Positions 1,452-41,425 of a DNA stretch of 64,000 bases are shown here, piece after piece (position 1 is the stretch's first letter; each line of letters begins with the position of its first letter). The stretch covers positions 3,309 through 67,308 of the forward strand of contig JAHFSD010000001.1 of the NCBI GenBank assembly GCA_023265925.1. Direction: 5' to 3'. The stretch comes from an archaeon (GTDB lineage: Archaea; Nanobdellota; Nanobdellia; Woesearchaeales; GW2011-AR9). The notes under the pieces were generated by a model, which saw only the letters and a list, made by a program, of their open reading frames with translations, did not search any database and was not told where the DNA came from. The translations under genes were made by a program, and so were the position numbers.

Positions 1452-3164
1452 ATGGTAGGTGTCACCAGCGACCTGTTCTTACAGCTCGGCATCGTCGTCG
1501 GCATCGCCGCCGGAGTAGCTTTTCTGCTGAGACTGCTGAAGCAGCCACAAATCTTTGCCTATGTCATCGCCGGAATACTGATTACCCCGGTCTTCAGCCT
1601 GATCACCGACACCAGCCTCATCCAATCCATGTCCATCCTGGGAATAGCCTTCCTGCTCTTCCTGGTGGGGTTAGAGATGGATCTGAAAGCGCTGAAAAGT
1701 GTTGCCCACGTCTCGCTGATCGGCGGGGCAATCCAGATGACGATCTTGTTTGTGCTGGGCTACCTGATCGCCCTGCTGCTGGGCTATCTTTCCCTGGAAG
1801 CAGCTTATGTGGGCTTGATGATTGCTTTCTCGTCCACGATGGTGGTGATGAAACTGCTGTCGGATAAGAGAGAACTTAACACGCTGCATGGCCGATTGGT
1901 CGTAGGCATTCTGCTGATGGAAGATATCGTCGCCATCTTTGCCATTTCCCTGTTAAGTTCGGTCAACGAATTCAGCCTGTCCCTGTTGGGCCTTGCCTTC
2001 CTGAAATTCCTCTCTGTTTTTGTCATCGCCTTCCTGTTGAGCAAATATGTTTTCCCGGTGCTGTTCCGCTATGCCGCCAAGCATCAGGAATTATTATTGA
2101 TTCTTTCGCTGGCGGTCTGTTTCCTGTTCGGGCTGGGCTTCTATAAGCTGGGCTTTTCGATTGCCATCGGCGCCTTTGTCGCCGGCGTGGCCCTTGGCAA
2201 CCTGGACTACAGCCTGGAAATCATCGGCAAGGTGAAAAGCCTGCGTGACTTCTTTGCCCTGCTCTTTTTTGTTTCGTTAGGCATGGGCTTATCGTTCAGC
2301 GCCTTGAAAGGGATCTGGCTGCCGCTCGTGGTGCTGCTGGCAGTCATCCTGCTCGCCAAGCCGCTGGTGACAATGACCATCTGTTCCCTGTTCCGCTACA
2401 CCAAAAAACCTTCCTTTCTCACGGCCCTGTCGCTGACGCAAATCGGCGAATTTTCGTTAATTATTGCGGCACAGGGGCTGGTTCTTGGCCACCTTTCCCA
2501 GGAATTATTTTCCATCATTGTATTGGTTACCCTGATTACCATCATGCTGACATCCTATTTCATCAAGTATGATCATTGGTTCTATGGGCTGCTGGAACGG
2601 CCGTTAAAAATCTTTGACTTTTTTACGACGGAAGGCTTAGAGTACCTGCCGACGGAAATCAAGCCGCGCATCATTCTCTGCGGCTATAACCGCATTGGTT
2701 ACAGCGTACTGCAGTCCCTGCAGCATCTCAAGAAAAAAATACTGGTAGTGGATTACAACCCGGAAATCATCGCTCAGTTGGTGAAGGAAGGGTATCATTG
2801 CCTCTACGGCGACGTGGCCGATGAAGAGATCATTGAGCGGATGAACCTGCCGCAGGTGCAGATGCTGATTTCCACCGTGCCGGAATTGTCGGACAACCAG
2901 CTGCTGATCAAGAAAGTGCAGGACATTACTAAGCGCGCTAAAATCATTGTCACCGCCTCGGACATTGACGATGCCCTCAAGCTGTATCATGCCGGAGCGG
3001 ACTACGTCATTCTGCCGCATTTCTTAGGCGGGGAGCATGTCTCGCAATTGATAAGCGAAGTGCAGGATGGCAAAAGAACCTTGCATGAAGAGAAGAAGAA
3101 ACATATCCACCATCTGCATGAGCGCAAGGGGATTGGGCACCGGCATCCGAGGCATGAACGGTAA
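1452..3164 (+). CDS. Kef-type monovalent cation:proton antiporter (CPA2) with C-terminal TrkA-N/RCK domain
   Basis: The first ~380 aa are highly hydrophobic and multi-spanning. They are followed by a Rossmann-like segment (IILCGYNRIGYSVLQSL..VVDYNPE..GDVADEE). Confidence 0.85.
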   Translation: MVGVTSDLFLQLGIVVGIAAGVAFLLRLLKQPQIFAYVIAGILITPVFSLITDTSLIQSMSILGIAFLLFLVGLEMDLKALKSVAHVSLIGGAIQMTILFVLGYLIALLLGYLSLEAAYVGLMIAFSSTMVVMKLLSDKRELNTLHGRLVVGILLMEDIVAIFAISLLSSVNEFSLSLLGLAFLKFLSVFVIAFLLSKYVFPVLFRYAAKHQELLLILSLAVCFLFGLGFYKLGFSIAIGAFVAGVALGNLDYSLEIIGKVKSLRDFFALLFFVSLGMGLSFSALKGIWLPLVVLLAVILLAKPLVTMTICSLFRYTKKPSFLTALSLTQIGEFSLIIAAQGLVLGHLSQELFSIIVLVTLITIMLTSYFIKYDHWFYGLLERPLKIFDFFTTEGLEYLPTEIKPRIILCGYNRIGYSVLQSLQHLKKKILVVDYNPEIIAQLVKEGYHCLYGDVADEEIIERMNLPQVQMLISTVPELSDNQLLIKKVQDITKRAKIIVTASDIDDALKLYHAGADYVILPHFLGGEHVSQLISEVQDGKRTLHEEKKKHIHHLHERKGIGHRHPRHER

Positions 3165-3183
3165 AGGGATATAGTAACAAAAA

Positions 3184-3453
3184 TCACCCAATATCCCGAT
3201 GGGTCGCGTACAGGAAGGCAGCATCTTTGTTCCATTTCCGCAATTCTGCCGCCACTTGCCGCGCGATGGAAAGGGACGTAATTTTATTTCTTACTTTCAC
3301 CCATTTGCTGACTATGCTGCTGATGTGGGCAGCGATTTTCGCACAGCGCTCGTCCGCCATCCCACCGGCAAATAAAGCGGCATAGACCGAGCCGTAAACT
3401 TTCCGCGCATCATAGTGCTGTTTTGTGCCGTTATTTTTAATGACGATGGTCAT
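3184..3453 (-). CDS. stand-alone ATP-cone domain protein
   Basis: The 89-aa product shows the ATP-cone pattern (VIKNNGTKQHYDARKVYGSV..A....A..I...V). Confidence 0.6.
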   Translation of the reverse strand: MTIVIKNNGTKQHYDARKVYGSVYAALFAGGMADERCAKIAAHISSIVSKWVKVRNKITSLSIARQVAAELRKWNKDAAFLYATHRDIG

Positions 3454-3489
3454 GATTCACTTGTTCCAATGAATTACCTTCATTTTTTC

Positions 3490-4209
3490 TCATCCTAAAT
3501 TAATCGTCCCATTCGCTATGAATATCAACAGCCAGCCCAGATAGACGAGCAGCAGACCCATCCCTAGGCGCATATAATGCCGCGTGCGCTGCTTCCAGGC
3601 TTTGATTTCATGGAGTTTCTTGCCGACAGCAACCAGGATGAGGATAATGATGAGTGGCAGTATAAAGATTATGTTGTACAGCACCAGCAATAAAAAAGCA
3701 GTAAAATCAAAGTACTGCGATAATAAAGTTATGATTGCCAGATAGGGAGCGCCCGTGCAGGGTAGTTCTACCGCAGATACGAACGCGCCCAGCAGCAGCA
3801 CGCCCGGAATGGTGGCCTTACTTGACATTACGTGAACTTTCTTGACAAACCGTCCTGGAATTGTCAGCGAAAACCAGCGGCCATACCAGAAGAAATCCTT
3901 AATTTCCAATAATCCTGCTGCCACCATCAGCAGGCCGACGGTAATGGAGAGATATTCGGTCAGCCATAACGGAATCGTCGAGAGGAAATAAAGTAATCCC
4001 AATCCGGCCAGCAGGTAGATGGTAAAGACGGATACTATATATAACCCCCCCAGCAGCAGCATCCGGGAGGTTGACTGCCGCGCGGCCAGCAGCACTGAAA
4101 CCATCAAAATCAAGACGCCAATCGCACAAGGATTGATGGCATCAATCGCTGCCGTAGCCACAACTGTCCCCAGCATTGGTAATAAGGCTTCAACGGCCAC
4201 AGAAATCAC
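3490..4209 (-). CDS. CcdA/DsbD-family thiol-disulfide transmembrane electron transporter
   Basis: There are six or more hydrophobic helices. Conserved Cys residues sit in membrane helices (AINPCAIGVL, ELPCTGAPYL). Confidence 0.75.
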   Translation of the reverse strand: MISVAVEALLPMLGTVVATAAIDAINPCAIGVLILMVSVLLAARQSTSRMLLLGGLYIVSVFTIYLLAGLGLLYFLSTIPLWLTEYLSITVGLLMVAAGLLEIKDFFWYGRWFSLTIPGRFVKKVHVMSSKATIPGVLLLGAFVSAVELPCTGAPYLAIITLLSQYFDFTAFLLLVLYNIIFILPLIIILILVAVGKKLHEIKAWKQRTRHYMRLGMGLLLVYLGWLLIFIANGTINLG

Positions 4210-4391
4210 CCCCTATGATTTCTGGGGCGTCAATCGCAAATCGCCCACCACCGGTCACAGACCGGTGGCCTGCTCGTTTCGCTCGGAGCGATTTGCTCTG
4301 ACCCTGCTTTTTCCAATCAACACAGTCTCGCTGACTAACCACCAGTGAGACACTGGTGGAAAAAGCAGATTCCAAAAATCCACGATTTTTG

Positions 4392-5210
4392 TTAGCCATG
4401 CAGCTCACCCCGCGCTATTGCTGTTTTATAGGATGCACAGAGCTTGTCGGTCTTTTCTTTTTCAGCGGCAAATTCAATGATGAGGCAATCGCCGGGAGGA
4501 ACCAGGCTGGAAGGGGAAAGGACGTAATCGGCATTAGCCTTGAATTGTTCATACTTTCTTCCTTCCGTCTTATAGACAAACACCTGTACCTTTCCAGGAA
4601 AGCCATTACAGGATCCTCCATTACCTGCTTCCACAACGCCGTTATTGGTGGGAACAACTAATTTTTCAGCGGTTAATGTTCCCCCGATAAATTCAAAAAA
4701 GCGGTGCAAGTTGGCATCACCCCGATTCAATACAACTCCCTCGACATGGATGCGGTTGTCGCCGTGCTCATGGAAGACCGGGCTGCCAATGCGGTTAGAT
4801 AAGCCGGTGGGATCACGCAGATCAATCTGTTCCCCGCAGTTCCAGAGCTCAAAATCAGCATGCCAATGGACCGGGCCGCCGGTATGCGAGGTCAGGTTGA
4901 GGTAGATGGTTGTGCCAGCTACATAAAGTGTGACCGCGGCAATCGGCAGGGCCAGGCCGAGGAAGAACAGCCATTTTTGCCGTTCGGTGAACCTTTCCTG
5001 GTAACGCAGGGCGGTAAGCAGAAGAATGATCACAAACAATCCTACTCCGATGGTGACATTCAGTGTCTGCTGTTTCAGGTTGACACCGTGATCAGAGAGA
5101 GCATTGTCGGTAAGATCATTGATCTCTTCAGGAACCTCTTCATGGGCGAGAACACTGAAAAGAACGTTAAAAGTAAGGAGAGCTATAATGAGCAGATATG
5201 ATGCTTTCAT
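4392..5210 (-). CDS. membrane-anchored exported protein with HxH...HEHG...H motifs (function unknown)
   Basis: It has an N-terminal signal and TM helices. The C-terminal domain reads HWHADFELWNCGEQIDL...VFHEHGDNRIHVEG. It lies upstream of, and co-oriented with, the CcdA-like gene. Confidence 0.5.
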   Translation of the reverse strand: MKASYLLIIALLTFNVLFSVLAHEEVPEEINDLTDNALSDHGVNLKQQTLNVTIGVGLFVIILLLTALRYQERFTERQKWLFFLGLALPIAAVTLYVAGTTIYLNLTSHTGGPVHWHADFELWNCGEQIDLRDPTGLSNRIGSPVFHEHGDNRIHVEGVVLNRGDANLHRFFEFIGGTLTAEKLVVPTNNGVVEAGNGGSCNGFPGKVQVFVYKTEGRKYEQFKANADYVLSPSSLVPPGDCLIIEFAAEKEKTDKLCASYKTAIARGELHG

Positions 5211-5381
5211 GCGCTGACCTCTTTTTGTGGAGGAAAATGACGGTAAGGTATATATAATTTGCGTGGGAAAGGAGATTAAATTGCTGGTGGTGGCAGGGTA
5301 AAGCCGCTCCGAAAAGTCACTAATTCGCTGGTCTCGTAGTTACACAAGATTTTTATACTTATTGTCATTACTAATATTAAA

Positions 5382-5948
5382 ATGGTTAATCCGGGATTAG
5401 TAAAGCAATTATTACAAGAATTGGAAGCAGAGAAAGGTTGTCCAGTGGAATTAAGAGCAGATACCCCTGAATCTAAATACTGTGAAGATGGGGAAATTTT
5501 TGGTTTGTTCTCTGAAAGAGGCGTTATTGTAAAAAGAGTGGATAGTTTAGATAAAAAATATCTCCCTGATGTGGAATTAATTGAGGGGAAATATGAAAGT
5601 CTGGCCCATTTAGTAAGAAGAATTCAAGAACTTAATGCCCTGTATGACACCCCCCTAAAAGGAAATTTAGCGGAGAGAGTATATCTATTAGTTAAAGAAA
5701 AAACAGGAGCAGGTGATCTTGTTGTTAATAATCTAGCTATGAATTTTAAAGAAGGAATGAGAGGCAAGCATGGAAGAATCTCTGCAGATAAAGTTTATAA
5801 AATTCTTGATAGGGCCGGATTAACTTACTTAAAGCACAATATTGTCGCCAGACCAGATGGGGTATACGATGACAGAACTGTAGGAGGGTCAATAAGTGTG
5901 ATTGATGAGACTAAAGTTGCCGATATTTCTCTAAAATTAATTGAATAA
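5382..5948 (+). CDS. hypothetical protein
   Basis: 188-aa AT-rich ORF. A TATA-like tttatact sits ~25 nt upstream of the ATG. No recognised motif. Confidence 0.5.
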   Translation: MVNPGLVKQLLQELEAEKGCPVELRADTPESKYCEDGEIFGLFSERGVIVKRVDSLDKKYLPDVELIEGKYESLAHLVRRIQELNALYDTPLKGNLAERVYLLVKEKTGAGDLVVNNLAMNFKEGMRGKHGRISADKVYKILDRAGLTYLKHNIVARPDGVYDDRTVGGSISVIDETKVADISLKLIE

Positions 5949-6217
5949 TTCCTTCCTGTTAGGACTTTTAGCGAATGGTAGGGGGAGTTTCCATTTCTCC
6001 AATGGGGCATTTACTCTGATATTGAACCTTATCTTTTTGGCAATTTCGTCAATCGCAAATCACCCAACACAGCAAATCATAGACGAGGTTGACGAAGGCC
6101 ATGATTGAATTAGTGACTTTTCTCGCGGACACCTACGAGTGTTAAGCAATACTTTCTCAGCGCAATCTTTAATCTCTTACCACAATCCTTTTAAAATCAG
6201 CTGGTTCTTAGAATTCC

Positions 6218-6730
6218 ATGCGCTCCGTTCATTATAATCCTACAACCTTAGATTCCTACGACTTTCTTGATGCCCTGTTATACTTCTCTCTCGCACCGGG
6301 CGATCGGCGCTTTACCAGCCAGCCTCAAGTGCTCTACCAACAGCTCTGTGACACTGTAGTAGAATACGTCACGGAGAGCGAGCCGCGGTTTGAGCCGTCT
6401 TACCGGGAAAAGGCGCTGGGCTACCTGTGGGAGCAGCTCAAAGAAACGCTCGCAGTGCACCGCCTGCAGCCGCGCCTGACGGATGCGCTCGAGAACCTGC
6501 TGGCCGTTTCATCGCTGAAATCAGTTCAGGGCTGTGAATATGTCTATCGCTATTGGGACCATTATTCGACACAGGCTATCACGGACGAAAAACCGGCCCG
6601 GATGAAACCGGAAACGCAGGAGTATGTTACTAAGAAAGTAGTGCCTGCTCTCTCGGCAGCGGAACAGCAGGAATTACTGTCGCTAGGAAGGTTGTTGAGG
6701 AAATACATTAAACGGAGTGAAGAGTGGTAG
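6218..6730 (+). CDS. hypothetical protein
   Basis: 170-aa ORF with no recognised motif. Confidence 0.5.
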   Translation: MRSVHYNPTTLDSYDFLDALLYFSLAPGDRRFTSQPQVLYQQLCDTVVEYVTESEPRFEPSYREKALGYLWEQLKETLAVHRLQPRLTDALENLLAVSSLKSVQGCEYVYRYWDHYSTQAITDEKPARMKPETQEYVTKKVVPALSAAEQQELLSLGRLLRKYIKRSEEW

Positions 6731-6790
6731 ATGTTTTTAACCGATTGCTTTAAATAATTCCCATTCTTTTCTCCGATAAAAAGAGGTTCC

Positions 6791-8155
6791 ATGAAATCTT
6801 TTGACCTAATAGTTATCGGTGCCGGTTCGGGATTAGATGTAGCCGTCGGCGCAGCGGAGCAAGGCCTTAAGACTGCTATCATCGAGGAAGGGCCTTTGGG
6901 AGGAACCTGCCTCAATCGCGGCTGCATTCCCAGCAAGATGATCATTTATTCAGCAGAAGTTGCCGACCTGATTCAGCAGGCCGGAAAGTTTGGCCTTGCT
7001 GCCTCGCTTACAAAAGTTGATTTTAAACAAGTGACCGAACGAGCCAGTAAAACTGTTGATGCTGATGCCCGTTCCATTGAGCAATCCTTACGGCAAGGAA
7101 AAAATCCAGTTTTGTTCAAAGGCCGGGCAAAATTTATCGGCCCACGAATGGTGCAGGTCAATGGAGAAACACTGCAGGGAAGGAAAATCCTTCTGGCTGC
7201 CGGTGCCCGTCCATCTATTCCACCCATTGAAGGATTGGATAAAGTACCTTATCTCACCAGCAAGGAAGCCTTGCGCCTGACCAGATTACCAAAAAGCATG
7301 ATCATTCTGGGTGGGGGATATATTGCCGCGGAGCTGGGTTATTTCTATGCGGCGCTAGGGTGTAAGACTACCATTATCCAGCGCGGCCCCTTGCTGATTC
7401 CCCGGGAAGATCGGGATATCTCAAAATTATTCACCTCGTTGTGGAAGAAGAAATATACGGTGCTGTTAAATGCCTCGGCTACGAAGGTGGAAGGAAATAA
7501 AGACAGCATCACTGTTCAGGTTACTGCCAATAATTCTGTGCGGAAAGTTACGGCAGAAAAATTGTTAGTCGTGACGGGAATCCGCCCTAACAGTGATACG
7601 CTGAATCTGGAAAAAACTGGTGTGAAAACAAATAAAAATGGCTTTGTAGTTGTCAATAAATATCTGGAAACTTCTGCTAAGAACATCTGGGCACTGGGCG
7701 ATCTGGCTGGCGTTTACCTGTTTAAGCATTCCGCCAATCTGGAAGCGGAATATGTGCTAAATAATATCCTGGACAGGAAAAAGCCGGTTGATTATTATCC
7801 GATGCCTCATGCGATCTTTACTAACCCGCAAATCGCCGGCGTGGGCTTGACCGAGCAGGAGGTTATCAGGCAGAAGAAAAAGTATGTGGTGGGGAAATAT
7901 TATTACCAGCACACCGGGATGGGCGCCGCGATGGAAGAGAAAGATGGCTTTGTGAAACTTATTGTCGATAAAAGAAGCAAGGAAATTCTCGGCTGCCACC
8001 TCCTGGGACCGGAAGCCTCGATTTTATCGCATGAAGTGGTGGTGGCAATGAAGGCAAATAGAAGAAAAGCATTGGAAATTCTGAGGAGTGCTGTACATGT
8101 CCATCCGGCCTTGAGTGAAGTGGTGCACCGGGCGGCACTGAGTGTTCCACTATAA
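6791..8155 (+). CDS. class I FAD-dependent pyridine nucleotide-disulfide oxidoreductase (dihydrolipoamide dehydrogenase / glutathione-mycothione reductase-like)
   Basis: It has the FAD motif DLIVIGAGSG, the redox-active disulfide GGTCLNRGCIPSK, a second Rossmann segment IILGGGYIAAE, and a C-terminal dimerisation HP motif (VHVHPALSE). Confidence 0.85.
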   Translation: MKSFDLIVIGAGSGLDVAVGAAEQGLKTAIIEEGPLGGTCLNRGCIPSKMIIYSAEVADLIQQAGKFGLAASLTKVDFKQVTERASKTVDADARSIEQSLRQGKNPVLFKGRAKFIGPRMVQVNGETLQGRKILLAAGARPSIPPIEGLDKVPYLTSKEALRLTRLPKSMIILGGGYIAAELGYFYAALGCKTTIIQRGPLLIPREDRDISKLFTSLWKKKYTVLLNASATKVEGNKDSITVQVTANNSVRKVTAEKLLVVTGIRPNSDTLNLEKTGVKTNKNGFVVVNKYLETSAKNIWALGDLAGVYLFKHSANLEAEYVLNNILDRKKPVDYYPMPHAIFTNPQIAGVGLTEQEVIRQKKKYVVGKYYYQHTGMGAAMEEKDGFVKLIVDKRSKEILGCHLLGPEASILSHEVVVAMKANRRKALEILRSAVHVHPALSEVVHRAALSVPL

Positions 8156-31834: not shown

Positions 31835-32179
31835 ATGAAAGAGCAGGAACAGCTTTTAGAGGAGAATATTCGCGAATTTTACACCCAAGGAGAGGAATCG
31901 CTCACCAAGCAGAAATATAATGCCGCCGTGAGTCTCTTCTTCAAGGCGCTCGCGGTACTGGCAGATTGGCATCTGCTTAAAACAAAAGGGAGAATTCCTA
32001 AAAGCCACTCGGAACGATTTCGTATTTTAGAAGAAAAATACCCTGAACTCTATGAGCTTCTCGACAAGGATTTCCCTGTTTATCAGGACAGTTATCAAAT
32101 TAAAATAAGCAAAGAAATTGCGGTGGTGTTAGAAAATGATGTTCGAACCGTTGCACAAAAAGTTGGCTTCTCACTCTGA
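31835..32179 (+). CDS. HEPN-domain protein
   Basis: 114-aa helical protein with KYNAAVSLFFKALAVLADWHLL and an Rx4H-type motif (GRIPKSH). It is adjacent to a nucleotidyltransferase gene. Confidence 0.6.
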   Translation: MKEQEQLLEENIREFYTQGEESLTKQKYNAAVSLFFKALAVLADWHLLKTKGRIPKSHSERFRILEEKYPELYELLDKDFPVYQDSYQIKISKEIAVVLENDVRTVAQKVGFSL

Positions 32180-32690
32180 ACTTCTCCTGGGGGTGTGGGA
32201 TGTTGTCGTGTATGGATCCGCAGTTCGCGGAAAATCAAAGCCGAGAGATATTGATATTGCTGTGCTCATGGCCGGGAAAATCATTGCCAGTAAGAAATTA
32301 TATCTCGCCCAGCAGTTTCGGAAAAATCTGGGAGGTGATGTTAAAGTTGTTGATCTGGACGACTTTCTCAATCCGGGATTCCTGGCACGACAGGCTATTC
32401 TCGCCGAAGGCTACTCGCTGTTAAAAAAAGATTATTTGGCAGAACGATTTGGTTATTCGGCCCTTGCTCTCATCACCTACACCTTAAAAAGCCTGCCTTT
32501 ATCCAAGCAGAAATTATTATACTATGCTCTGCAAGGCCGGAAACGCGGTACGGGAGTATTAGCAAAATTAGGCGGAAAAATAATAGGTAAAAGCCTCTTG
32601 GCCGTGCCGACAAAACATTTCGAGAAACTTAAAGACTTGCTGCAGCAACATCAGGTAGAGTTTGAAACCAGCTTTACTCTTCAATATTAA
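32136..32690 (+). CDS. nucleotidyltransferase (MNT-like) with C-terminal extension
   Basis: It has the Pol-beta NTase motif VVVYGSAVRGKSKPRDIDIAVLM. The track ORF overlaps the HEPN gene by 44 nt, so a later start is possible. Confidence 0.75.
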   Translation: MMFEPLHKKLASHSELLLGVWDVVVYGSAVRGKSKPRDIDIAVLMAGKIIASKKLYLAQQFRKNLGGDVKVVDLDDFLNPGFLARQAILAEGYSLLKKDYLAERFGYSALALITYTLKSLPLSKQKLLYYALQGRKRGTGVLAKLGGKIIGKSLLAVPTKHFEKLKDLLQQHQVEFETSFTLQY

Positions 32691-34107: not shown

Positions 34108-36333
34108 ATGAAAAAAAGAGTAGTAAACCCCTCTAAGTACATTATCATTTCTGTAGTGCTGATTTTCATTTTATTGGTCATTGGCTTATTGTCTTTGGGG
34201 CCTTTCTTGGACAAAGTAGCAGCCCAGGTAAAAACAGTAATAAAAGCAAAGACCCCAACATCGGAAGTGGATATAGCTCTTTCTCCTATCCCTGACAAAA
34301 CCTATGTTACGACGGCAAAACTATTACGTCCTCGTTTTGCCAGCGGGGTTCATGTTCGCAATGAGTTAAAAAGTTACCTTACCAGTTTTACCGCAGGAAA
34401 ATATGATGAAGCTGTACATAAAATAATCTCTTTTCAGGGAGAGATCAATCCCTTTGATTTATCCACCCTTCTAGAAATAGATACAGCCCTTGCCGATTCC
34501 ATTGCCAAAGCAGCAGGTACCGTAAAATTAGCTAAGGATTTTAGTACTGAGCGTAAATCCTGTGAAGCTTTCAATGGTCTCCTTAATCCTTCTCTTCTCA
34601 TCATGGATCTTACGTTATGGAGCGGAAAATCGGAACTATATCTAGCTTTACAACAGAATAGAGATGTAGGAATGCAATGCTTATTCTACTATCCTCAGCT
34701 CAGCCACGGGATGGTGACGTATGATGTGAGAACGGGAAGGATTGTGCAAAGAAGTGCCTTCTGCGATCCTTCCGAAACGAAAAGCAAATGCTTCGGCGTT
34801 TGGGATTACTTCTGGAAGTTTGCGGTTGATCCGAGGGAGGGACCAATCAATTATGGTGTGGGATGTAGTCTAACCGACTGGATGAATCAGGGGTTTATCT
34901 GTACGCACGGGGTTGATATTCGAAATAATACAATGATGATGAACACTATCTTCTCCCTCGATGGCACTGCACTGCTCCACATTGACGTCAAAGATGAATT
35001 TCAGAATGCCTTAGGCGCCAGCGGAAAAATGATCATTGACAACGTCAAACAGAAATGCGCCAAAGTGAAGGAAAAATCATCCAAATACGGCAGTATTGTT
35101 CCTGCATTAACGGGAGCAGGGAGTTCTCTGACGGGCGGAGTTATTTCCACAGCTACAGCTGCCACCGGCACGGGAGAAGGCCTCAAGGAGGAATACGAGA
35201 AAGCGATGCTGTTTGCCTCGTTGTTCTCAGAAGCTTGTACAGCAAACCCGAGCGATTTAGCCAAGGATTTAGCCGGTGGAGGAGGAGCAGGACAGTTTGG
35301 GTTAAATAAACCGAATGCCTGTATTTTATCGGACGTGAAAGAGGTTAGTTCCAATGGATTACAAGCAGAAAAAGCCTGTCTTGATCATTTCTTTGGTCCC
35401 AGAGGACTGGAACAGGTGCAGAATCTGGATGGGCTTCCTGACAATTGGTGTATGCCTTCTGCTTCGCAAAGTGGTTCGCAATGTACTGATATCTCCTGTT
35501 TGCTCCCCGGAGGAGATAAGGGGTGTGGTTCTGACGGCACCAAATGCGGCAGGGAACCAACCAAACAGGAAGAACAATATCTGAAAAATGCTGGTGCGGG
35601 AGCAGTGGGGGAAAAATGGCGCGTCGTGGATACACGAAAAGAGATCGACGAAATTTGTGGAAGAAAACTGGGAGCGAGCGCCGCAGCTTGTTCTAGTCAG
35701 AGCACGAAAACAGCGTACGTTCTTAAAGAGAATATTAAAGCTAGTCCCAAGGATCCAACCACCGCACCTTCGCCAAAAGGTGGCGGAAAAGTTTACACTT
35801 TTCAAGCTTTGGTAAAGCATGAACAGAATCATATTACTAAAGATGATCCTAAAAAATCGGTTGATGAGAATGATCAAGTTCGAAAAGAGGAGGATAAAAA
35901 AAATTCTAAGAATTTTGTCAATCCTCCCAAAGGAGAGCCTGCCCCCGATGGCTTGGAACCGGATGAATGCTCCGCCCAGGCTCAAAAAGTGAATGCTTTC
36001 GCCGATTGCCTGGACAAATCCCAGTTAAAAAATATTGAACAGCCTAATGGTCTTGCCCCTGCTAGGGGTGGGTCAGCACCTGATCCTGCTCCACCCGGAG
36101 AGGAAGTTGGTGGTACAACTGTGCCAAAATGCGATGAAACGAGTAAAAGTGGTGGAGCAGGCGGATATTTTGGAACAAAAGAGAATTCGGCAGATGATTG
36201 CATTATTGGCGATTTCTGTGATTTTGGCGGTTCTGTATTGGGCGGTCGAATGGGAACACCAAAAATCTGCCAGCAGGTCGAAAGTACTGGAGAAGGAAAA
36301 GAACCTCCCTGTCCGGGCTTAGGCAATGACTAA
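34108..36333 (+). CDS. large secreted/signal-anchored Cys-rich protein of unknown family
   Basis: 741 aa with an N-terminal TM/signal anchor (IIISVVLIFILLVIGLLSLG) and many Cys throughout. The last ~115 aa form a Cys-rich module that recurs at 37369-37692. Confidence 0.7.
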   Translation: MKKRVVNPSKYIIISVVLIFILLVIGLLSLGPFLDKVAAQVKTVIKAKTPTSEVDIALSPIPDKTYVTTAKLLRPRFASGVHVRNELKSYLTSFTAGKYDEAVHKIISFQGEINPFDLSTLLEIDTALADSIAKAAGTVKLAKDFSTERKSCEAFNGLLNPSLLIMDLTLWSGKSELYLALQQNRDVGMQCLFYYPQLSHGMVTYDVRTGRIVQRSAFCDPSETKSKCFGVWDYFWKFAVDPREGPINYGVGCSLTDWMNQGFICTHGVDIRNNTMMMNTIFSLDGTALLHIDVKDEFQNALGASGKMIIDNVKQKCAKVKEKSSKYGSIVPALTGAGSSLTGGVISTATAATGTGEGLKEEYEKAMLFASLFSEACTANPSDLAKDLAGGGGAGQFGLNKPNACILSDVKEVSSNGLQAEKACLDHFFGPRGLEQVQNLDGLPDNWCMPSASQSGSQCTDISCLLPGGDKGCGSDGTKCGREPTKQEEQYLKNAGAGAVGEKWRVVDTRKEIDEICGRKLGASAAACSSQSTKTAYVLKENIKASPKDPTTAPSPKGGGKVYTFQALVKHEQNHITKDDPKKSVDENDQVRKEEDKKNSKNFVNPPKGEPAPDGLEPDECSAQAQKVNAFADCLDKSQLKNIEQPNGLAPARGGSAPDPAPPGEEVGGTTVPKCDETSKSGGAGGYFGTKENSADDCIIGDFCDFGGSVLGGRMGTPKICQQVESTGEGKEPPCPGLGND

Positions 36334-36341
36334 AAGAATAC

Positions 36342-37301
36342 TTAAAACATCATTAGAGGATAGTTCTTGGCAGGAACATGAGTTCGTACCTCCCTGAGGC
36401 ATTTCTTATTCTTTCCACATAACTCTTTCATAATTTCTTTATAGAATGGTATTAAATCTCCCCAAAGGTTCTGTACCGCATCATAATATTTACCTTCTTT
36501 AACAGATTCTTTAGACTCTTTCACCAATCTTTGATATTCTGGCGATTGCATAATGAGGCTTCTCCCTCTTTCTTTATTTCCCAAATACCATTCAATCTTG
36601 CCGGCACTCCAGTAATTTCCCTTTTGTAGGTTCTCATCCCGTATGGCAGCAAGCTCTTCCAGTGGCGTTAGTTTAATAATCTCTTCAGCAGCATTCCACC
36701 TTTTACGAAAATATTCACGAGCTTTGTTCAGGTATTCCTTAGACTTTTCAGCATTTTTATTAGAGTAATATTCTGATAAATGGTAATAGATCCGGGCTGT
36801 CCCGGCAAATCTTCCCCGCTTTTTATAATGCTCAGCACTATCTTCCATCAGCTCTTGGTATTTCTCTGAATCATTTTTATATTTACAATTGGCAAGATTG
36901 ACATCCAAGTAAATTAAATCATCCGTCGTGCTCCATACTACATGAATCATTCCCGTGGTTGTGGCAGTAGGAAGAGCTGCCTCCGCCATGGCAAGCCATT
37001 TTAGGAGTTCTGCATGTTCTTTCTTTATTTCCCCCTCATCACATACCTTTTTTATTCCTTCTACTTTGATATTTTTCTTGTTGATAAATGGCTGGGCAAT
37101 TTCAAGCGTATTGATGTAGTGCCAATAAGGGTCTCTCTTAAGGAGTTGTCTTTGCTTGCTTTCTTCCGTTTGATGTTCTCGTGCTGGCTGCAGTTCGACT
37201 GTTTCTGAACGCTGAGTTTCATAGCTACAGTGCTGAGCAGCAAGGGAACTCAGACCAATCAGCCCGGCCAACGTTAAGGAAAGGGATAATTCCTTCATCA
37301 T
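36342..37301 (-). CDS. exported helical-repeat (TPR/Sel1-like) partner protein, paralogue 1
   Basis: It has a signal/lipobox-like N-terminus (MMKELSLSLTLAGLIGLSSLAAQHC) from the ATG at 37301. It is convergent with, and 8 bp from, the stop of the 741-aa gene. It is paralogous to 37696-38646 (LANCKY, AEHY, SAGK.EW..GNKER blocks). Confidence 0.65.
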   Translation of the reverse strand: MMKELSLSLTLAGLIGLSSLAAQHCSYETQRSETVELQPAREHQTEESKQRQLLKRDPYWHYINTLEIAQPFINKKNIKVEGIKKVCDEGEIKKEHAELLKWLAMAEAALPTATTTGMIHVVWSTTDDLIYLDVNLANCKYKNDSEKYQELMEDSAEHYKKRGRFAGTARIYYHLSEYYSNKNAEKSKEYLNKAREYFRKRWNAAEEIIKLTPLEELAAIRDENLQKGNYWSAGKIEWYLGNKERGRSLIMQSPEYQRLVKESKESVKEGKYYDAVQNLWGDLIPFYKEIMKELCGKNKKCLREVRTHVPAKNYPLMMF

Positions 37302-37368
37302 AGTGATAACTGGAAGTGTGCAGTTTATATAAATATTTTGGTTCATTATTCGCAATGACAGAATAGGG

Positions 37369-37692
37369 GAATCGGATGAATGCTCAACCCAGACACAGAA
37401 AGTGGATGCAGTTGCTAATTGCTTAGAACAGTCTCAACTGAAGGATTTATTCGAGAAAGAAGGAAGAAAGCCTGTACCTGACCCCTTTCCACCAGGAGAT
37501 GAAGTTGGTGGCGTTTCCGTGCCAGGCTGTGGACAGCAAGGGCACAAAACCAGCCTTAAAGATGGGGTTACTGACTGCCTGACTGAAGACGTATGCCTAC
37601 AACCTATGGGACTCGTTTCAGGGGGTATGATAAATCCCAAATGCCAGGCGGTGCAAGGTGCAGAAGAAGGACTGCAGTGCCCGTTTAAGTAA
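37369..37692 (+). pseudogene. orphan, start-less copy of the C-terminal ~110-aa module of the 741-aa protein
   Basis: Its translation is ESDECSTQTQKVDAVANCLEQSQLK...PPGDEVGGVSVPGC...PKCQAV..EEGLQCP. The gene end at 35950-36333 reads PDECSAQAQKVNAFADCLDKSQLK...PPGEEVGGTTVPKC...PKICQQV..GKEPPCP. Homology begins 33 nt upstream of the only candidate start (GTG 37402), and an in-frame stop lies at 37330. Confidence 0.6.
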
Positions 37693-37695
37693 ACG

Positions 37696-38646
37696 TTAAA
37701 ATTCCTCTAATTTGTATGATAAGAGCTGGATACGGCAGTGCTGATTAGGGCATAATTCCTCAACAAGTTCCCGATAGAATGGAATTTTTAATTTATTCCA
37801 CAAACAGTGGAAGGCTGGTTCGTACCTCTGATCAGCAATAGCACTTTTAGCTAGTTCTAATTCGCGCCTAAACTCTCCTGATTGTCTCATTAATTCTTTT
37901 GCTCTCTCTTTATTTCCCATAACCCATTCTGCTTTTCCTGCGCTTAAGAGATCACCGCGCTTCAAATAGGAGTCTCTCAGTGCTGGCAGTTCCTCTGCCA
38001 TCGTGTAGGCAATTGCTCCTTCGGTGCTGTACGTCCACTGGGCGAAGAAATCACGAGCACACTGCTTATCGCCTGCAGCCAGGCAGGCCCGGCCAGCATC
38101 ATCAAATGCTTCCACAAGGGCATAATGCTCGGCAATTTCATGGAGGAAATCGTTCCATTTCTGAGTGCCGGAATATTTACAGTTCGCTAGTTTTCTATCA
38201 AGATCAACCAGTTCGTCAATAAGGTCAAACAGTGAATGAATCTCGCTGGTAACTCGAACATCAGCAGCTCGTACCGCTATCTTTCGCCGTGCCAGCACCT
38301 CAGAAAGTTCTCGATGCTTATCTCTAATTTCCTCTTCGTCGCAGTCACTTTTAAGATTATGAAGATCCGGATTAGCATTAAAAAAAACGAGATTATAGTC
38401 GGGAGTATCAAGGAGAAAATTCAAGTGGTTGGTATAATCATCAATAAACTGTTCTTTAACAATGGGATCAGGTCTGTTCTTTTTAGTTGCTGGTGGCGTG
38501 ATGTAATCTTGTCTCCCTGAATTTTCCAAAAGTTGACGTGGAGAAACAACGTGAGCAGTGGAACCTATTGACTTATTCCGAAAATAAAGATAGCCACTTA
38601 ATAATCCTACCAGTCCTAATCCTGCCAGCAGATACTGTTTTTTCAT
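37696..38646 (-). CDS. exported helical-repeat partner protein, paralogue 2
   Basis: It has an N-terminal TM anchor from the ATG at 38646 (MKKQYLLAGLGLVGLLSGYLYF). It is convergent with, and 3 bp from, the orphan module stop. It aligns with 36342-37301 over most of its length. Confidence 0.65.
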   Translation of the reverse strand: MKKQYLLAGLGLVGLLSGYLYFRNKSIGSTAHVVSPRQLLENSGRQDYITPPATKKNRPDPIVKEQFIDDYTNHLNFLLDTPDYNLVFFNANPDLHNLKSDCDEEEIRDKHRELSEVLARRKIAVRAADVRVTSEIHSLFDLIDELVDLDRKLANCKYSGTQKWNDFLHEIAEHYALVEAFDDAGRACLAAGDKQCARDFFAQWTYSTEGAIAYTMAEELPALRDSYLKRGDLLSAGKAEWVMGNKERAKELMRQSGEFRRELELAKSAIADQRYEPAFHCLWNKLKIPFYRELVEELCPNQHCRIQLLSYKLEEF

Positions 38647-38760
38647 GGGGTCCCGTCTCCCTAGCACATACCCTGTCTCTATCGATGGAAGTCTGCTTCT
38701 CTCCAAGGCTTTCTTATATTTATAACTTTGCCCCACCTGCCTCTCTCTTGTGAACTACCA

Positions 38761-40881: not shown

Positions 40882-41172
40882 TTATTCTTCTGCCGTTGGC
40901 TGCCATTGATAGACAACATCGTGATGGCCGTAATACCACAGCTCGATAACGTGGCGTTGATGATCCACCTTGAAAATGAGCACGAACGAGTTATCGATAT
41001 GGACCCGATTAAATCCCGACAACGGAGCTCTCAGGAATTTATAGCCAACAGGAGTTTCCCGAATCTTTTTTACCTTGTTATTGATTATCTGCAACTGTTT
41101 CTGATTCTTCTTGGCCAATTTTGCAAAAATCTTATCGGCCTCGGGCTTAATCTCCAGGTCGTACATCAGCAA
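40882..41172 (-). CDS. RelE/YafQ-family toxin
   Basis: 96 aa matching the RelE-fold family pattern: ..AKKNQKQLQIINNKVKKI...P......L..PL.G..RVHI...FVLIF.VD......I.L..YGHHD. Confidence 0.75.
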   Translation of the reverse strand: MLMYDLEIKPEADKIFAKLAKKNQKQLQIINNKVKKIRETPVGYKFLRAPLSGFNRVHIDNSFVLIFKVDHQRHVIELWYYGHHDVVYQWQPTAEE

Positions 41173-41185
41173 TCATCTCTTTACA

Positions 41186-41425
41186 CTAAAAACTTTTGAA
41201 TCCATACCGCTTCACAAAATCATCTACCCGGATACTTTTCTGCTTGCCGATTTCCTTCATTTTTTGGCAAAATTCCGGCCGCAGTTCGGGTTCCTCTTCC
41301 AGTTCGATATACTCAGCTACCACCAGTTTTATCGCCTCACTTTTATCTTTGAGTGCATACTTCGCTTTTACCACATTAAGTACCCGATTAGTGCTTTCAT
41401 CCAGTTCGACCAGTGCCTGAACCAT
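41186..41425 (-). CDS. cognate antitoxin (archaeal DUF2683-like)
   Basis: The 79-aa gene lies directly upstream of the RelE-like gene. Its N-terminus is VELDESTNRVLNVVKAKYALKDKSEAI. Confidence 0.6.
   Translation of the reverse strand: MVQALVELDESTNRVLNVVKAKYALKDKSEAIKLVVAEYIELEEEPELRPEFCQKMKEIGKQKSIRVDDFVKRYGFKSF

What the first reader, a model, noticed from the sequence alone, without database searches (positions are those of the whole stretch)
37333..37692. Orphan C-terminal cassette whose homology starts upstream of any start codon
The frame containing track ORF 37402..37692 is open from the stop at 37330. Similarity to the 741-aa protein begins at 37369 (ESDECSTQTQKVDAVANCLEQSQLK against PDECSAQAQKVNAFADCLDKSQLK). 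That is 33 nt before the only candidate start (GTG 37402), and no ATG/GTG/TTG lies in between. The conserved stretch DECSxQxQKVxAxAxCLxxSQLK sits exactly at the junction where the two sequences become alignable. This is analogous to the conserved pre-toxin motifs (VENN, PxxxxDPxGL) that mark recombination junctions in bacterial polymorphic toxins. Downstream, the Cys positions and PPG(D/E)EVGG..VP.C and PKCQ blocks are conserved while the intervening residues diverge.
Basis: seen in the sequence. Interest (0 to 1): 0.7.

Follow-up and report, generated by a model that had tools for sequence, protein, structure and literature searches.

The report
Displaced gene tail with spare partner
A copy of the last ~108 codons of a large membrane-anchored protein gene, lacking any start codon or promoter, sits beside its own copy of the neighbouring partner gene in a DPANN-type archaeon. 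It is best read as a left-over of module shuffling in a tiny, heavily recombining gene family, not as a gene of its own.

Summary
Codons 37369-37689 align in frame to residues 617-734 of the 741-aa protein (41% identity, E 5e-22). The 33 nt before GTG 37402 match 27/33; the 33 nt before that match 4/33. No ATG/GTG/TTG lies between the stop at 37330 and 37402.

The convergent minus-strand genes after the resident tail (36342..37301) and after the orphan (37696..38646) are paralogues. The layout is [big gene][partner 1][orphan tail][partner 2].

The family is tiny: about 12 proteins among billions, all from "Nanoarchaeota" (DPANN) groundwater assemblies. Each big gene has a convergent partner. 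The same partner | start-less tail | partner layout recurs in two other assemblies, with breakpoints at residues ~562 and ~650. One of these orphans shares a 156-nt perfect tract with its resident gene. The family is strongly mosaic.

The C-terminal domain is conserved in every member, so it is not a variable toxin tip. No stand-alone ~100-aa family exists. The orphan has no promoter or ribosome-binding site of the local type.

Best reading: a displaced 3' module that serves as a recombination substrate. A selected cassette role and a toxin/immunity function are both unproven.

The parts
34108..36333 (+). Resident full-length gene (741 aa). It has an N-terminal membrane anchor, a conserved core (aa ~150-450), a hypervariable segment with an invariant HExxH (aa 451-610) and a Cys-rich C-terminal domain (aa 611-741).
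   Evidence: ORF. Family of ~10 homologues. Invariant H571/E572/H575. Conservation profile. TATA-like gtttaaatat ~33 nt upstream of the ATG.
35956..36333 (+). Resident C-terminal domain, the counterpart of the orphan.
36342..37301 (-). Partner 1 (319 aa from ATG 37301). It has a signal/anchor N-terminus and an all-helical TPR/SNAP-like solenoid, and it is convergent with the resident gene (8-nt gap).
   Evidence: Gene call of 319 aa on the source contig. Orthologues at 78% and 72% identity. AlphaFold2 pLDDT 75.6 with weak TPR/SNAP fold matches. Four invariant Cys.
37325..37336 (-). TATA box (TTTATATAAATA) with an A-rich upstream element on the minus strand, 24-35 nt before ATG 37301. It is the promoter of partner 1, not of the orphan.
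   Evidence: Comparison with 28 other gene starts in the window. These show an A-rich stretch plus a TATA box 25-35 nt upstream of the ATG. Orientation is inferred.
37364..37369 (+). Homology breakpoint. To the left is the partner-1 promoter region, unrelated to the big gene. To the right is the conserved (E)(P/S)DECSxQxQK block, entered about 6 codons into the family block PxPDxLEPDEC.
37369..37692 (+). Orphan C-terminal module: 107 codons plus stop, with an intact frame and all seven Cys. The GGxGGYFG motif is lost by a 7-codon deletion. It is mosaic: the first 48 aa are 90% identical to P0005, while the rest is closest to P0007 and P0010.
37402..37404 (+). GTG, the only candidate start. There is no TATA box at -25..-35 and no GAGG-type ribosome-binding site. 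The product would lack the first Cys of the domain and any signal peptide.
   Evidence: The gene caller did not call it on the source contig.
37696..38646 (-). Partner 2 (316 aa from ATG 38646). It is a paralogue of partner 1 (32-35% identity), convergent with the orphan (3-nt gap), and is complete with a signal/anchor N-terminus.
   Evidence: (E 3e-39). Gene call of 316 aa.
38714..38725 (-). TATA-like ttataaatataa preceded by gcaaag, ~70 nt upstream of ATG 38646. It is a likely own promoter for partner 2.
   Evidence: The function is inferred.

Best explanation
The orphan is the 3' end of a former or paralogous copy of the 741-aa gene. It was left without a 5' end, promoter or start codon when a block made of 'C-terminal tail plus convergent partner gene' was duplicated or displaced. 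The possible events are C-terminal displacement, or tandem duplication followed by 5' loss. The functional survivor of that block is partner 2. The tail itself is most likely not translated. It remains homologous DNA lying 1.4 kb downstream of the resident tail in direct orientation. It can therefore exchange sequence with full-length copies by gene conversion. A crossover in the conserved EPDECSAQAQK-coding block would fuse it to the resident gene and delete tail 1 and partner 1. What is shown: the anatomy, the paralogy of both halves of the unit, recurrence at other loci, family mosaicism, and one perfect 156-nt shared tract in a sibling locus. What is inferred: the lack of translation, the direction and frequency of exchange, and any selected 'cassette' role. 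The biochemical function of the pair is not established. The sequences suggest a membrane-anchored, Cys-rich extracytoplasmic protein carrying an HExxH motif, paired with a secreted or anchored TPR-like protein that may bind it.
For: The tail-plus-partner unit is repeated. The homology break is sharp and abuts the partner-1 promoter. Every big gene examined has a convergent partner: L001, L002, L003, L006, L009 and three no-DNA loci. The same partner | start-less tail | partner layout occurs in L001, where the tail runs from residue ~650 and a decayed third partner fragment lies distally, and in L005, where the tail runs from residue 562. The L005 tail is 79% identical to the P0010 tail, and its partner is 59% identical to P0010's partner, which is its best match. 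In L001 a 156-nt exact tract (4981-5136 = 6379-6534) is flanked by unalignable DNA. Segment identities are incongruent across the family: P0002 versus P0003 gives 84/29/74/16% for N/M/C1/C2, and P0001 versus P0002 gives 72/87/73/28%. The orphan is itself mosaic. A profile of the domain against 1.84 billion representatives finds only this family and no stand-alone small-protein family. The orphan lacks the local promoter and RBS features and was not gene-called.
Against: The orphan frame is intact over 107 codons. It keeps 17 of 20 family-conserved columns, within the range of functional members, and its frame scores best of the six frames. This would also fit a translated gene or very recent truncation. 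The longest exact match between orphan and resident in this window is 13 nt, so there is no sign of recent exchange at this locus. No recombinant variant and no RNA or read data could be obtained. The direction of the L001 event is unknown. Tandem duplication and 5' deletion of a second full-length paralogue cannot be told apart from displacement.
Confidence: 0.6

Rival explanations
1. It is a purely neutral relic: a pseudogene fragment on its way to deletion. It has no role as donor or acceptor of sequence and survives only because it abuts the 3' end of the useful partner-2 gene.
For: More decayed remnants exist. L006 holds a 26-aa tail piece with a premature stop back-to-back with a 44-aa partner piece, and L001 holds a 48-aa partner fragment. 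The orphan has lost the otherwise near-universal GGYFG motif. No recent identity tract with the resident gene is present in this window. The orphan lacks a promoter and a start.
Against: All three larger orphans (window, L001, L005) have uninterrupted frames running to the native stop. The window orphan keeps every Cys and 85% of conserved columns. Its first 48 aa are 90% identical to a full-length gene from another assembly but only 60% identical to the resident. The 156-nt perfect tract in L001 shows that such orphans do take part in recombination.
Confidence: 0.22
2. It is a polymorphic toxin/immunity system. The big protein delivers a C-terminal toxin, the partners are immunity proteins, and the orphan plus partner 2 is a spare toxin-tip/immunity module, as in Rhs and CdiA loci.
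For: The layout has a module plus an adjacent small gene and start-less orphans that begin in conserved sequence. Partners diverge fast, at about 30% identity between paralogues, while the big-gene core stays at 45-84%. There are several pairs per genome.
Against: The C-terminal domain is one homologous Cys-rich domain in all members, not a set of alternative toxin folds. There is no match to any toxin, immunity or defence family. Partners are convergent, carry signal or anchor sequences, and do not co-vary with the hypervariable last 36 residues. The AlphaFold2 model of the C-terminal domain is unconfident, with pLDDT below 35.
Confidence: 0.12
3. It is an independent small gene: a 96-aa protein translated from GTG 37402.
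For: The frame is open and scores best of the six frames. A 94-aa ORF over the L001 orphan was annotated as a hypothetical protein in a public MAG. The TATA box at 37325-37336 could in principle fire in both directions.
Against: Homology extends 33 nt upstream of the GTG, at 27/33 identity. There is no TATA box at -25..-35 and no GAGG-type RBS, unlike other genes in the window. The product would lack the first conserved Cys and any signal peptide, although the domain is extracytoplasmic in the parent protein. No stand-alone family exists among 1.84 billion representatives, and the other orphans start at different residues. It was not called on the source contig.
Confidence: 0.05
4. It is an assembly artefact: a chimeric join of strains or paralogues in a metagenome contig.
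For: The window comes from a metagenome assembly that also holds several paralogues or relatives.
Against: The junction lies between a partner promoter and the middle of a conserved block, with no shared repeat to cause a mis-join. The same architecture is seen in three independent assemblies: ENA ERZ27297570, NCBI JBBSWG01 and Logan SRR22388197.
Confidence: 0.02

Closest known systems
Orphan C-terminal modules made by 'C-terminal displacement' in bacterial Rhs / CdiA / T6SS effector loci (Jackson 2009; Koskiniemi 2014; Kirchberger 2017, PMC5361080, read)
   Same: A full-length gene is followed by 5'-truncated, start-less copies of its 3' end, each with its own adjacent small gene. The orphan begins inside a conserved block. 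More distal modules are more decayed (L001). Recombination between the orphan and the resident gene is evident in a sibling locus.
   Different: The organism is a DPANN-type archaeon and the family is uncharacterised. The tails are homologous variants of one domain rather than unrelated toxin folds. The partner gene is convergent, not co-directional, and carries a signal or anchor sequence. Orphan breakpoints are scattered (residues 562, 617, 650). No toxicity or immunity has been shown.
Silent-cassette gene conversion systems (Neisseria pilE/pilS, Borrelia vlsE/vls; from my own knowledge)
   Same: The copies are promoter-less, 5'-truncated and homologous to the variable 3' part of an expressed surface-protein gene. 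Conserved short blocks flank variable stretches. The family is mosaic, and a perfect conversion-like tract exists in L001.
   Different: There is only one cassette per locus, and each is tied to a complete partner gene. No recombination-initiating element is known. Variation within a population has not been observed.
Ordinary partial tandem duplication or pseudogene remnants of paralogous gene pairs
   Same: One illegitimate junction explains the anatomy. Decayed fragments of both genes occur at sibling loci.
   Different: The frame, the Cys pattern and the conserved columns are preserved. The first 48 aa are 90% identical to a distant full-length gene. The architecture recurs at three loci.

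Membership tests
Polymorphic toxin systems (Rhs/CdiA-like) | C-termini of homologues are alternative, unrelated toxin domains downstream of a conserved demarcating motif. | tested here: not met
   All 11 full-length members and the orphans share one homologous 7-Cys C-terminal domain. Only its last ~36 residues and the upstream segment 451-610 are hypervariable.
Polymorphic toxin systems (Rhs/CdiA-like) | A cognate immunity gene lies immediately downstream and co-varies with the toxin tip. | tested here: inconclusive
   An adjacent partner is present at every locus examined, but it is convergent. The L005 orphan tail and its partner both match the P0010 module best (79% and 59%). However, partners of P0001 and P0002 are 72% identical while their last 36 residues are 28% identical.
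Polymorphic toxin systems (Rhs/CdiA-like) | The C-terminal domain is toxic and is neutralised by the partner. | not testable with these tools
   There is no match to known toxin, immunity or defence profiles. The AlphaFold2 model of the C-terminal domain is unconfident.
Polymorphic toxin systems (Rhs/CdiA-like) | Orphan, start-less tip-plus-partner modules lie downstream of the main gene. | tested here: met
   Window, L001 and L005.
Silent-cassette antigenic variation (pilE/pilS type) | Promoter-less 5'-truncated copies are homologous to the variable part of an expressed gene. | tested here: met
   There is only one copy per locus.
Silent-cassette antigenic variation (pilE/pilS type) | Non-reciprocal transfer from cassette to expression site is seen as variants within a population. 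| not testable with these tools
Exact-protein look-ups found only the source contig. Indirect support comes from the 156-nt perfect tract in L001 and from family mosaicism.
Independent small-protein gene | It is conserved as a stand-alone ORF with its own start and expression signals. | tested here: not met
   One search finds no stand-alone family, only the non-orthologous L001 orphan ORF. Searches show no promoter or RBS and no gene call. Homology runs upstream of the start.
Zincin-type metalloprotease (for the 741-aa parent) | An HExxH motif within a recognisable zincin fold or profile. | tested here: inconclusive
   HExxH is invariant in 9 of 9 full-length proteins. It lies in a helix of the only moderately confident C-terminal part of the model, aa 470-610. 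No Pfam, PDB sequence or fold match was found.

The most novel reading that the evidence does not exclude
DPANN-type archaea carry a family of membrane-anchored, Cys-rich surface proteins whose C-terminal half is diversified by recombination with start-less cassettes. These proteins may act in host or neighbour recognition. Each cassette would be kept together with a matched secreted TPR-like partner. This would be an archaeal counterpart of bacterial C-terminal displacement or silent-cassette variation, and the window orphan would be a maintained cassette rather than debris.
Probability: 0.2. Interest if true: 0.7.

Novelty: new variant of a known kind. Interest (0 to 1): 0.45.

Why it matters
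Orphan 'tail plus partner' arrays are a hallmark of bacterial systems under diversifying selection, such as Rhs, CDI and T6SS effectors and antigenic-variation loci. Here the same genomic pattern appears in an uncharacterised, lineage-restricted pair of extracytoplasmic proteins in groundwater DPANN archaea. These organisms live attached to other cells, and their surface biology is largely unknown. If the exchange is real and selected, the family marks a fast-evolving interface worth testing for host or neighbour recognition or for antagonism. If not, it is still a clean example for annotation: the 96-aa ORF should not be called as a gene, and the unit to annotate is the partner paralogue with a 3' gene remnant.

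Tried and rejected
- A profile of the two window tails against the 5.8-billion-cluster index found nothing. This was a word-index limitation, because the exhaustive profile search later found the family.
- The look-up of encoding contigs returned no record for P0002, P0005 and P0023, and no DNA for the loci of P0003, P0006, P0007, P0022 and P0001. The closest sibling loci could therefore not be read.
- The 96-aa product is not on record. That look-up may have failed only because GTG was translated as V.
- Two metagenome scans gave a single extra short locus, L009.
- The AlphaFold2 model of the 741-aa protein was poor (pLDDT 48.8), and the Foldseek PDB search gave no hit at E <= 0.001.
- Pfam, PADLOC and a PDB sequence profile search were all empty.
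- I first counted the L006 5'-truncated copy (P0011, starting at residue ~320) as a further orphan. I rejected this. Its missing N-terminal half is P0009/L004, which ends at the complementary residue. An IS200/IS605-type transposase ORF and an MmeI-like R-M gene lie between the halves, so it is an insertion-split gene.
- dN/dS was not attempted. The only DNA available for comparison is below 50% amino-acid identity, so synonymous sites are saturated.
- The sigma-70 promoter and intrinsic-terminator scan is not informative for an archaeon.

Full report
**1. The observation**

The frame containing 37402..37692 is open from the TAA at 37330-37332. It reads IFWFIIRNDRIG-ESDECSTQTQK-V(GTG)DAVANCLEQ..., and no ATG, GTG or TTG occurs before GTG 37402.

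BLASTP aligns residues 13-117 of this 119-codon frame to residues 617-734 of the 741-aa protein encoded at 34108..36333. The alignment has 48/118 identities and E 5e-22. tblastn against the whole window finds no further copy.

At DNA level, 37369-37401 matches resident 35956-35988 at 27 of 33 positions. None of 127,776 other 33-mers of the window reaches 27; the maximum is 22. The 33 nt further upstream match at 4 of 33. Homology therefore really starts 33 nt before the only candidate start codon, at about 37364-37369.

**2.

The minus-strand gene that converges on the resident gene is partner 1 (36342..37301, 319 aa). The minus-strand gene that converges on the orphan is partner 2 (37696..38646, 316 aa). 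These two are paralogues: 35% identity over 253 residues, E 3e-39.

The locus therefore reads: big gene -> <- partner 1 | orphan tail -> <- partner 2. The gaps at the two convergent junctions are 8 and 3 nt.

The orphan's left edge abuts the partner-1 promoter. This is a TTTATATAAATA box at 37325-37336 with an A-rich element on the minus-strand side, 24-35 nt before ATG 37301. Most genes in the window show the same pattern.

GTG 37402 has neither such a box at -25..-35 nor the GAGG-type ribosome-binding site seen before leadered genes here. The gene caller used on the source contig did not call it, and it called partner 2 as 316 aa. Partner 2 has its own TATA-like element at 38714-38725.

**3. 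The organism and the family**

The window has an archaeal-type ThrRS with the archaea-specific editing domain. It belongs to an 81.9-kb contig of assembly ERZ27297570.

The 741-aa protein has only about ten relatives among 5.8 billion protein clusters. Where a name is given, they come from "Nanoarchaeota archaeon" MAGs, that is, DPANN archaea; one read locus (L006) comes from a contig labelled Hain_H51.

An exhaustive profile search with the C-terminal domain against 1.84 billion representatives returned seven proteins, all of this family. The only ~100-aa hit is the ORF over the L001 orphan described below.

No Pfam, PADLOC or PDB sequence match exists for the big protein, the orphan or the partners.

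The big protein has these parts:
- an N-terminal hydrophobic anchor;
- a conserved core at aa ~150-450, with mean column identity 0.5-0.75;
- a hypervariable segment at aa 451-610 (about 0.25) that nevertheless carries an invariant HExxH;
- a C-terminal domain with seven conserved Cys.

Its AlphaFold2 model is poor (pLDDT 48.8). The C-terminal domain is below 35, and Foldseek finds nothing.

The partners have a signal or anchor N-terminus and four invariant Cys. The partner model (pLDDT 75.6) is an all-helical solenoid with weak TPR/SNAP-like matches, the best at E 8e-3. Both proteins therefore look extracytoplasmic. That the partner binds the big protein is an inference from the fold type and the fixed gene pairing.

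**4. Related loci**

Every big gene whose neighbourhood could be seen is followed by a convergent partner. This holds for L001, L002, L003, L006 and L009, and for the gene tables of the loci of P0003, P0006 and P0007. One MAG holds four paralogous loci.

Two other loci repeat the window's architecture.
- L001 (the P0004 locus) has a big gene at 3066..5231, a partner at 5234..6211 (-), an orphan tail ORF at 6348..6632 (+), a second complete partner at 6636..7526 (-), and then a 48-residue partner fragment. The orphan's homology starts at residue ~650.
- L005 is a 1.5-kb contig from another run. It shows the 5' end of a minus-strand gene with a partner-like N-terminus (not homology-tested) and then a tail whose homology to P0010 starts abruptly at residue 562, just after the HExxH position. 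The tail is 79% identical to P0010 over 182 residues. A convergent partner follows, and its best match (59%) is P0010's own partner.

Orphans therefore recur, but their breakpoints differ: residues 562, 617 and 650.

A smaller, decayed pair of fragments lies in L006.

A fourth apparent truncated copy, P0011 in L006, turned out to be the 3' half of a gene split at residue ~320. An insertion carrying an IS200/IS605-type transposase and an MmeI-like R-M gene separates the halves. The complementary 5' half is P0009/L004.

**5. Evidence for recombination**

In L001 the orphan and the resident gene share a 156-nt exact tract (4981-5136 = 6379-6534). The tract ends precisely at the ...GDFCDF codons and is flanked on both sides by essentially unalignable DNA.

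Across the family, segment identities are incongruent:

| Pair | N (51-450) | M (451-610) | C1 (611-705) | C2 (last 36 aa) |
|---|---|---|---|---|
| P0002 vs P0003 | 84% | 29% | 74% | 16% |
| P0001 vs P0002 | 72% | 87% | 73% | 28% |
| P0002 vs L002 | 57% | 29% | 67% | 73% |

The window orphan is itself mosaic. Its first 48 residues are 90% identical to P0005 but only 60% identical to its own resident gene. Its middle and end are closest to P0007 and P0010, at 46-55%.

The EPDECSAQAQK-coding block is the most conserved DNA in the last 150 codons, with a mean pairwise identity of 0.76. It is the first conserved stretch after the hypervariable segment, which makes it a plausible homology anchor. 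The orphan begins about six codons into the wider family block PxPDxLEPDEC.

**6. Is the orphan decaying or maintained?**

It keeps all seven Cys and 17 of 20 columns that are conserved among full-length members. Leave-one-out values for the full-length members themselves range from 0.67 to 1.00. Its reading frame scores best of the six frames, and its codon score is similar to that of the resident tail.

It has lost the GGxGGYFG motif through a 7-codon deletion.

In this window the longest exact match to the resident tail is 13 nt, so nothing indicates recent exchange here.

Partners 1 and 2 are about as diverged from each other as from any other partner, at ~30% identity. The two modules are therefore old relative to each other. 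An intact tail then implies one of three things: recent orphaning of a previously full-length second gene, displacement of an older resident module by an incoming one, or maintenance by conversion or selection. I cannot separate these without the sibling contigs.

**7. Interpretation**

The most economical account is a displaced or duplicated 3' module. One illegitimate junction joins the region upstream of partner 1 to a point inside the conserved block of a big gene. This leaves a start-less tail with its own intact partner.

The gradient in L001, where the distal module is more decayed, fits sequential displacement as described for Rhs and T6SS effector arrays (PMC5361080; Jackson 2009 and Koskiniemi 2014 as cited there). 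The recurrence with different breakpoints fits as well.

The tail is very unlikely to be an independent gene, for four reasons:
- homology runs upstream of the candidate start;
- it has no local expression signals;
- the product would lose the first Cys and have no export signal;
- no stand-alone family exists.

It is a plausible recombination substrate, as the L001 tract and the family mosaicism show. Whether that role is selected remains open.

The polymorphic-toxin analogy holds for the genomic architecture only. The tails are variants of one domain. The partner is convergent and exported. The partner does not track the hypervariable last 36 residues: partners of P0001 and P0002 are 72% identical while those tails are 28% identical. 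Nothing indicates toxicity.

**8. Verdict**

- The kind of structure is known from bacteria. Here it appears as a new variant in an uncharacterised DPANN-specific gene pair.
- Interest is moderate. The architecture and the mosaicism point to a fast-evolving extracytoplasmic interface, but function and active cassette use are unproven.

Noticed in passing
window 34108-36333 (aa 571-575) and all homologues: An HExxH motif is invariant in 9 of 9 full-length family members, although it sits in the most variable segment (aa 451-610). It lies in a helix of the only moderately confident C-terminal part of the AlphaFold2 model. It may be a small zincin-like module, but no profile or fold match was found.
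   Followed up: partly
L006 1-4538 and L004 10001-10900: A family member is split at residue ~320. The 5' half (P0009) ends at ...KQKCAK plus 9 unrelated residues, at a contig end. The 3' half (P0011) starts at KEKSSKYG. Between them in L006 lie an IS200/IS605-type transposase ORF (HLHLFV motif) and a 945-aa MmeI-like restriction-modification gene. This looks like disruption of the gene by a mobile-element insertion.
   Followed up: partly
L006 5500-5704: A partner C-terminal fragment (~44 aa, minus strand) lies back-to-back with a big-gene tail fragment (KKNSADNCVIGDFCDF..., plus strand, with a premature stop). This is a strongly decayed partner | orphan junction of the same topology as in the window.
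   Followed up: partly
L006 5764-8888; P0009: An ion-transport (Ion_trans) gene lies directly upstream of the big gene P0010. In P0009 an ion-channel-like N-terminus is fused in frame to the big-protein N-domain. The significance is unknown.
   Followed up: no
window 31835-32690: Two overlapping small genes are present. One encodes a 114-aa protein with no Pfam hit. The other encodes a 184-aa Pol-beta-type nucleotidyltransferase (PF18765, E 2.6e-8). The arrangement is typical of MNT/HEPN-like toxin-antitoxin pairs.
   Followed up: partly
window 40882-41425 (minus strand): A 79-aa DUF2683 protein (E 6.5e-7) is followed by a 96-aa ORF with no Pfam hit. This compact two-gene cassette may be a toxin-antitoxin pair.
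   Followed up: no
window 1-64000: ARAGORN finds no tRNA gene in 64 kb. Most genes have a TATA box 25-35 nt upstream of the ATG, suggesting leaderless or very short-leader mRNAs. A minority have a GAGG-type ribosome-binding site.
   Followed up: partly
2.7-kb contig of sample ERZ27297570 carrying P0022 (no DNA available): Next to a 78%-identical orthologue of partner 1, an ORF on the big-gene strand starts ~140 nt beyond the partner's start. It is cut after 76 aa by the contig end. It may be an orthologue of the orphan, and the contig break there may reflect repeated sequence.
   Followed up: no
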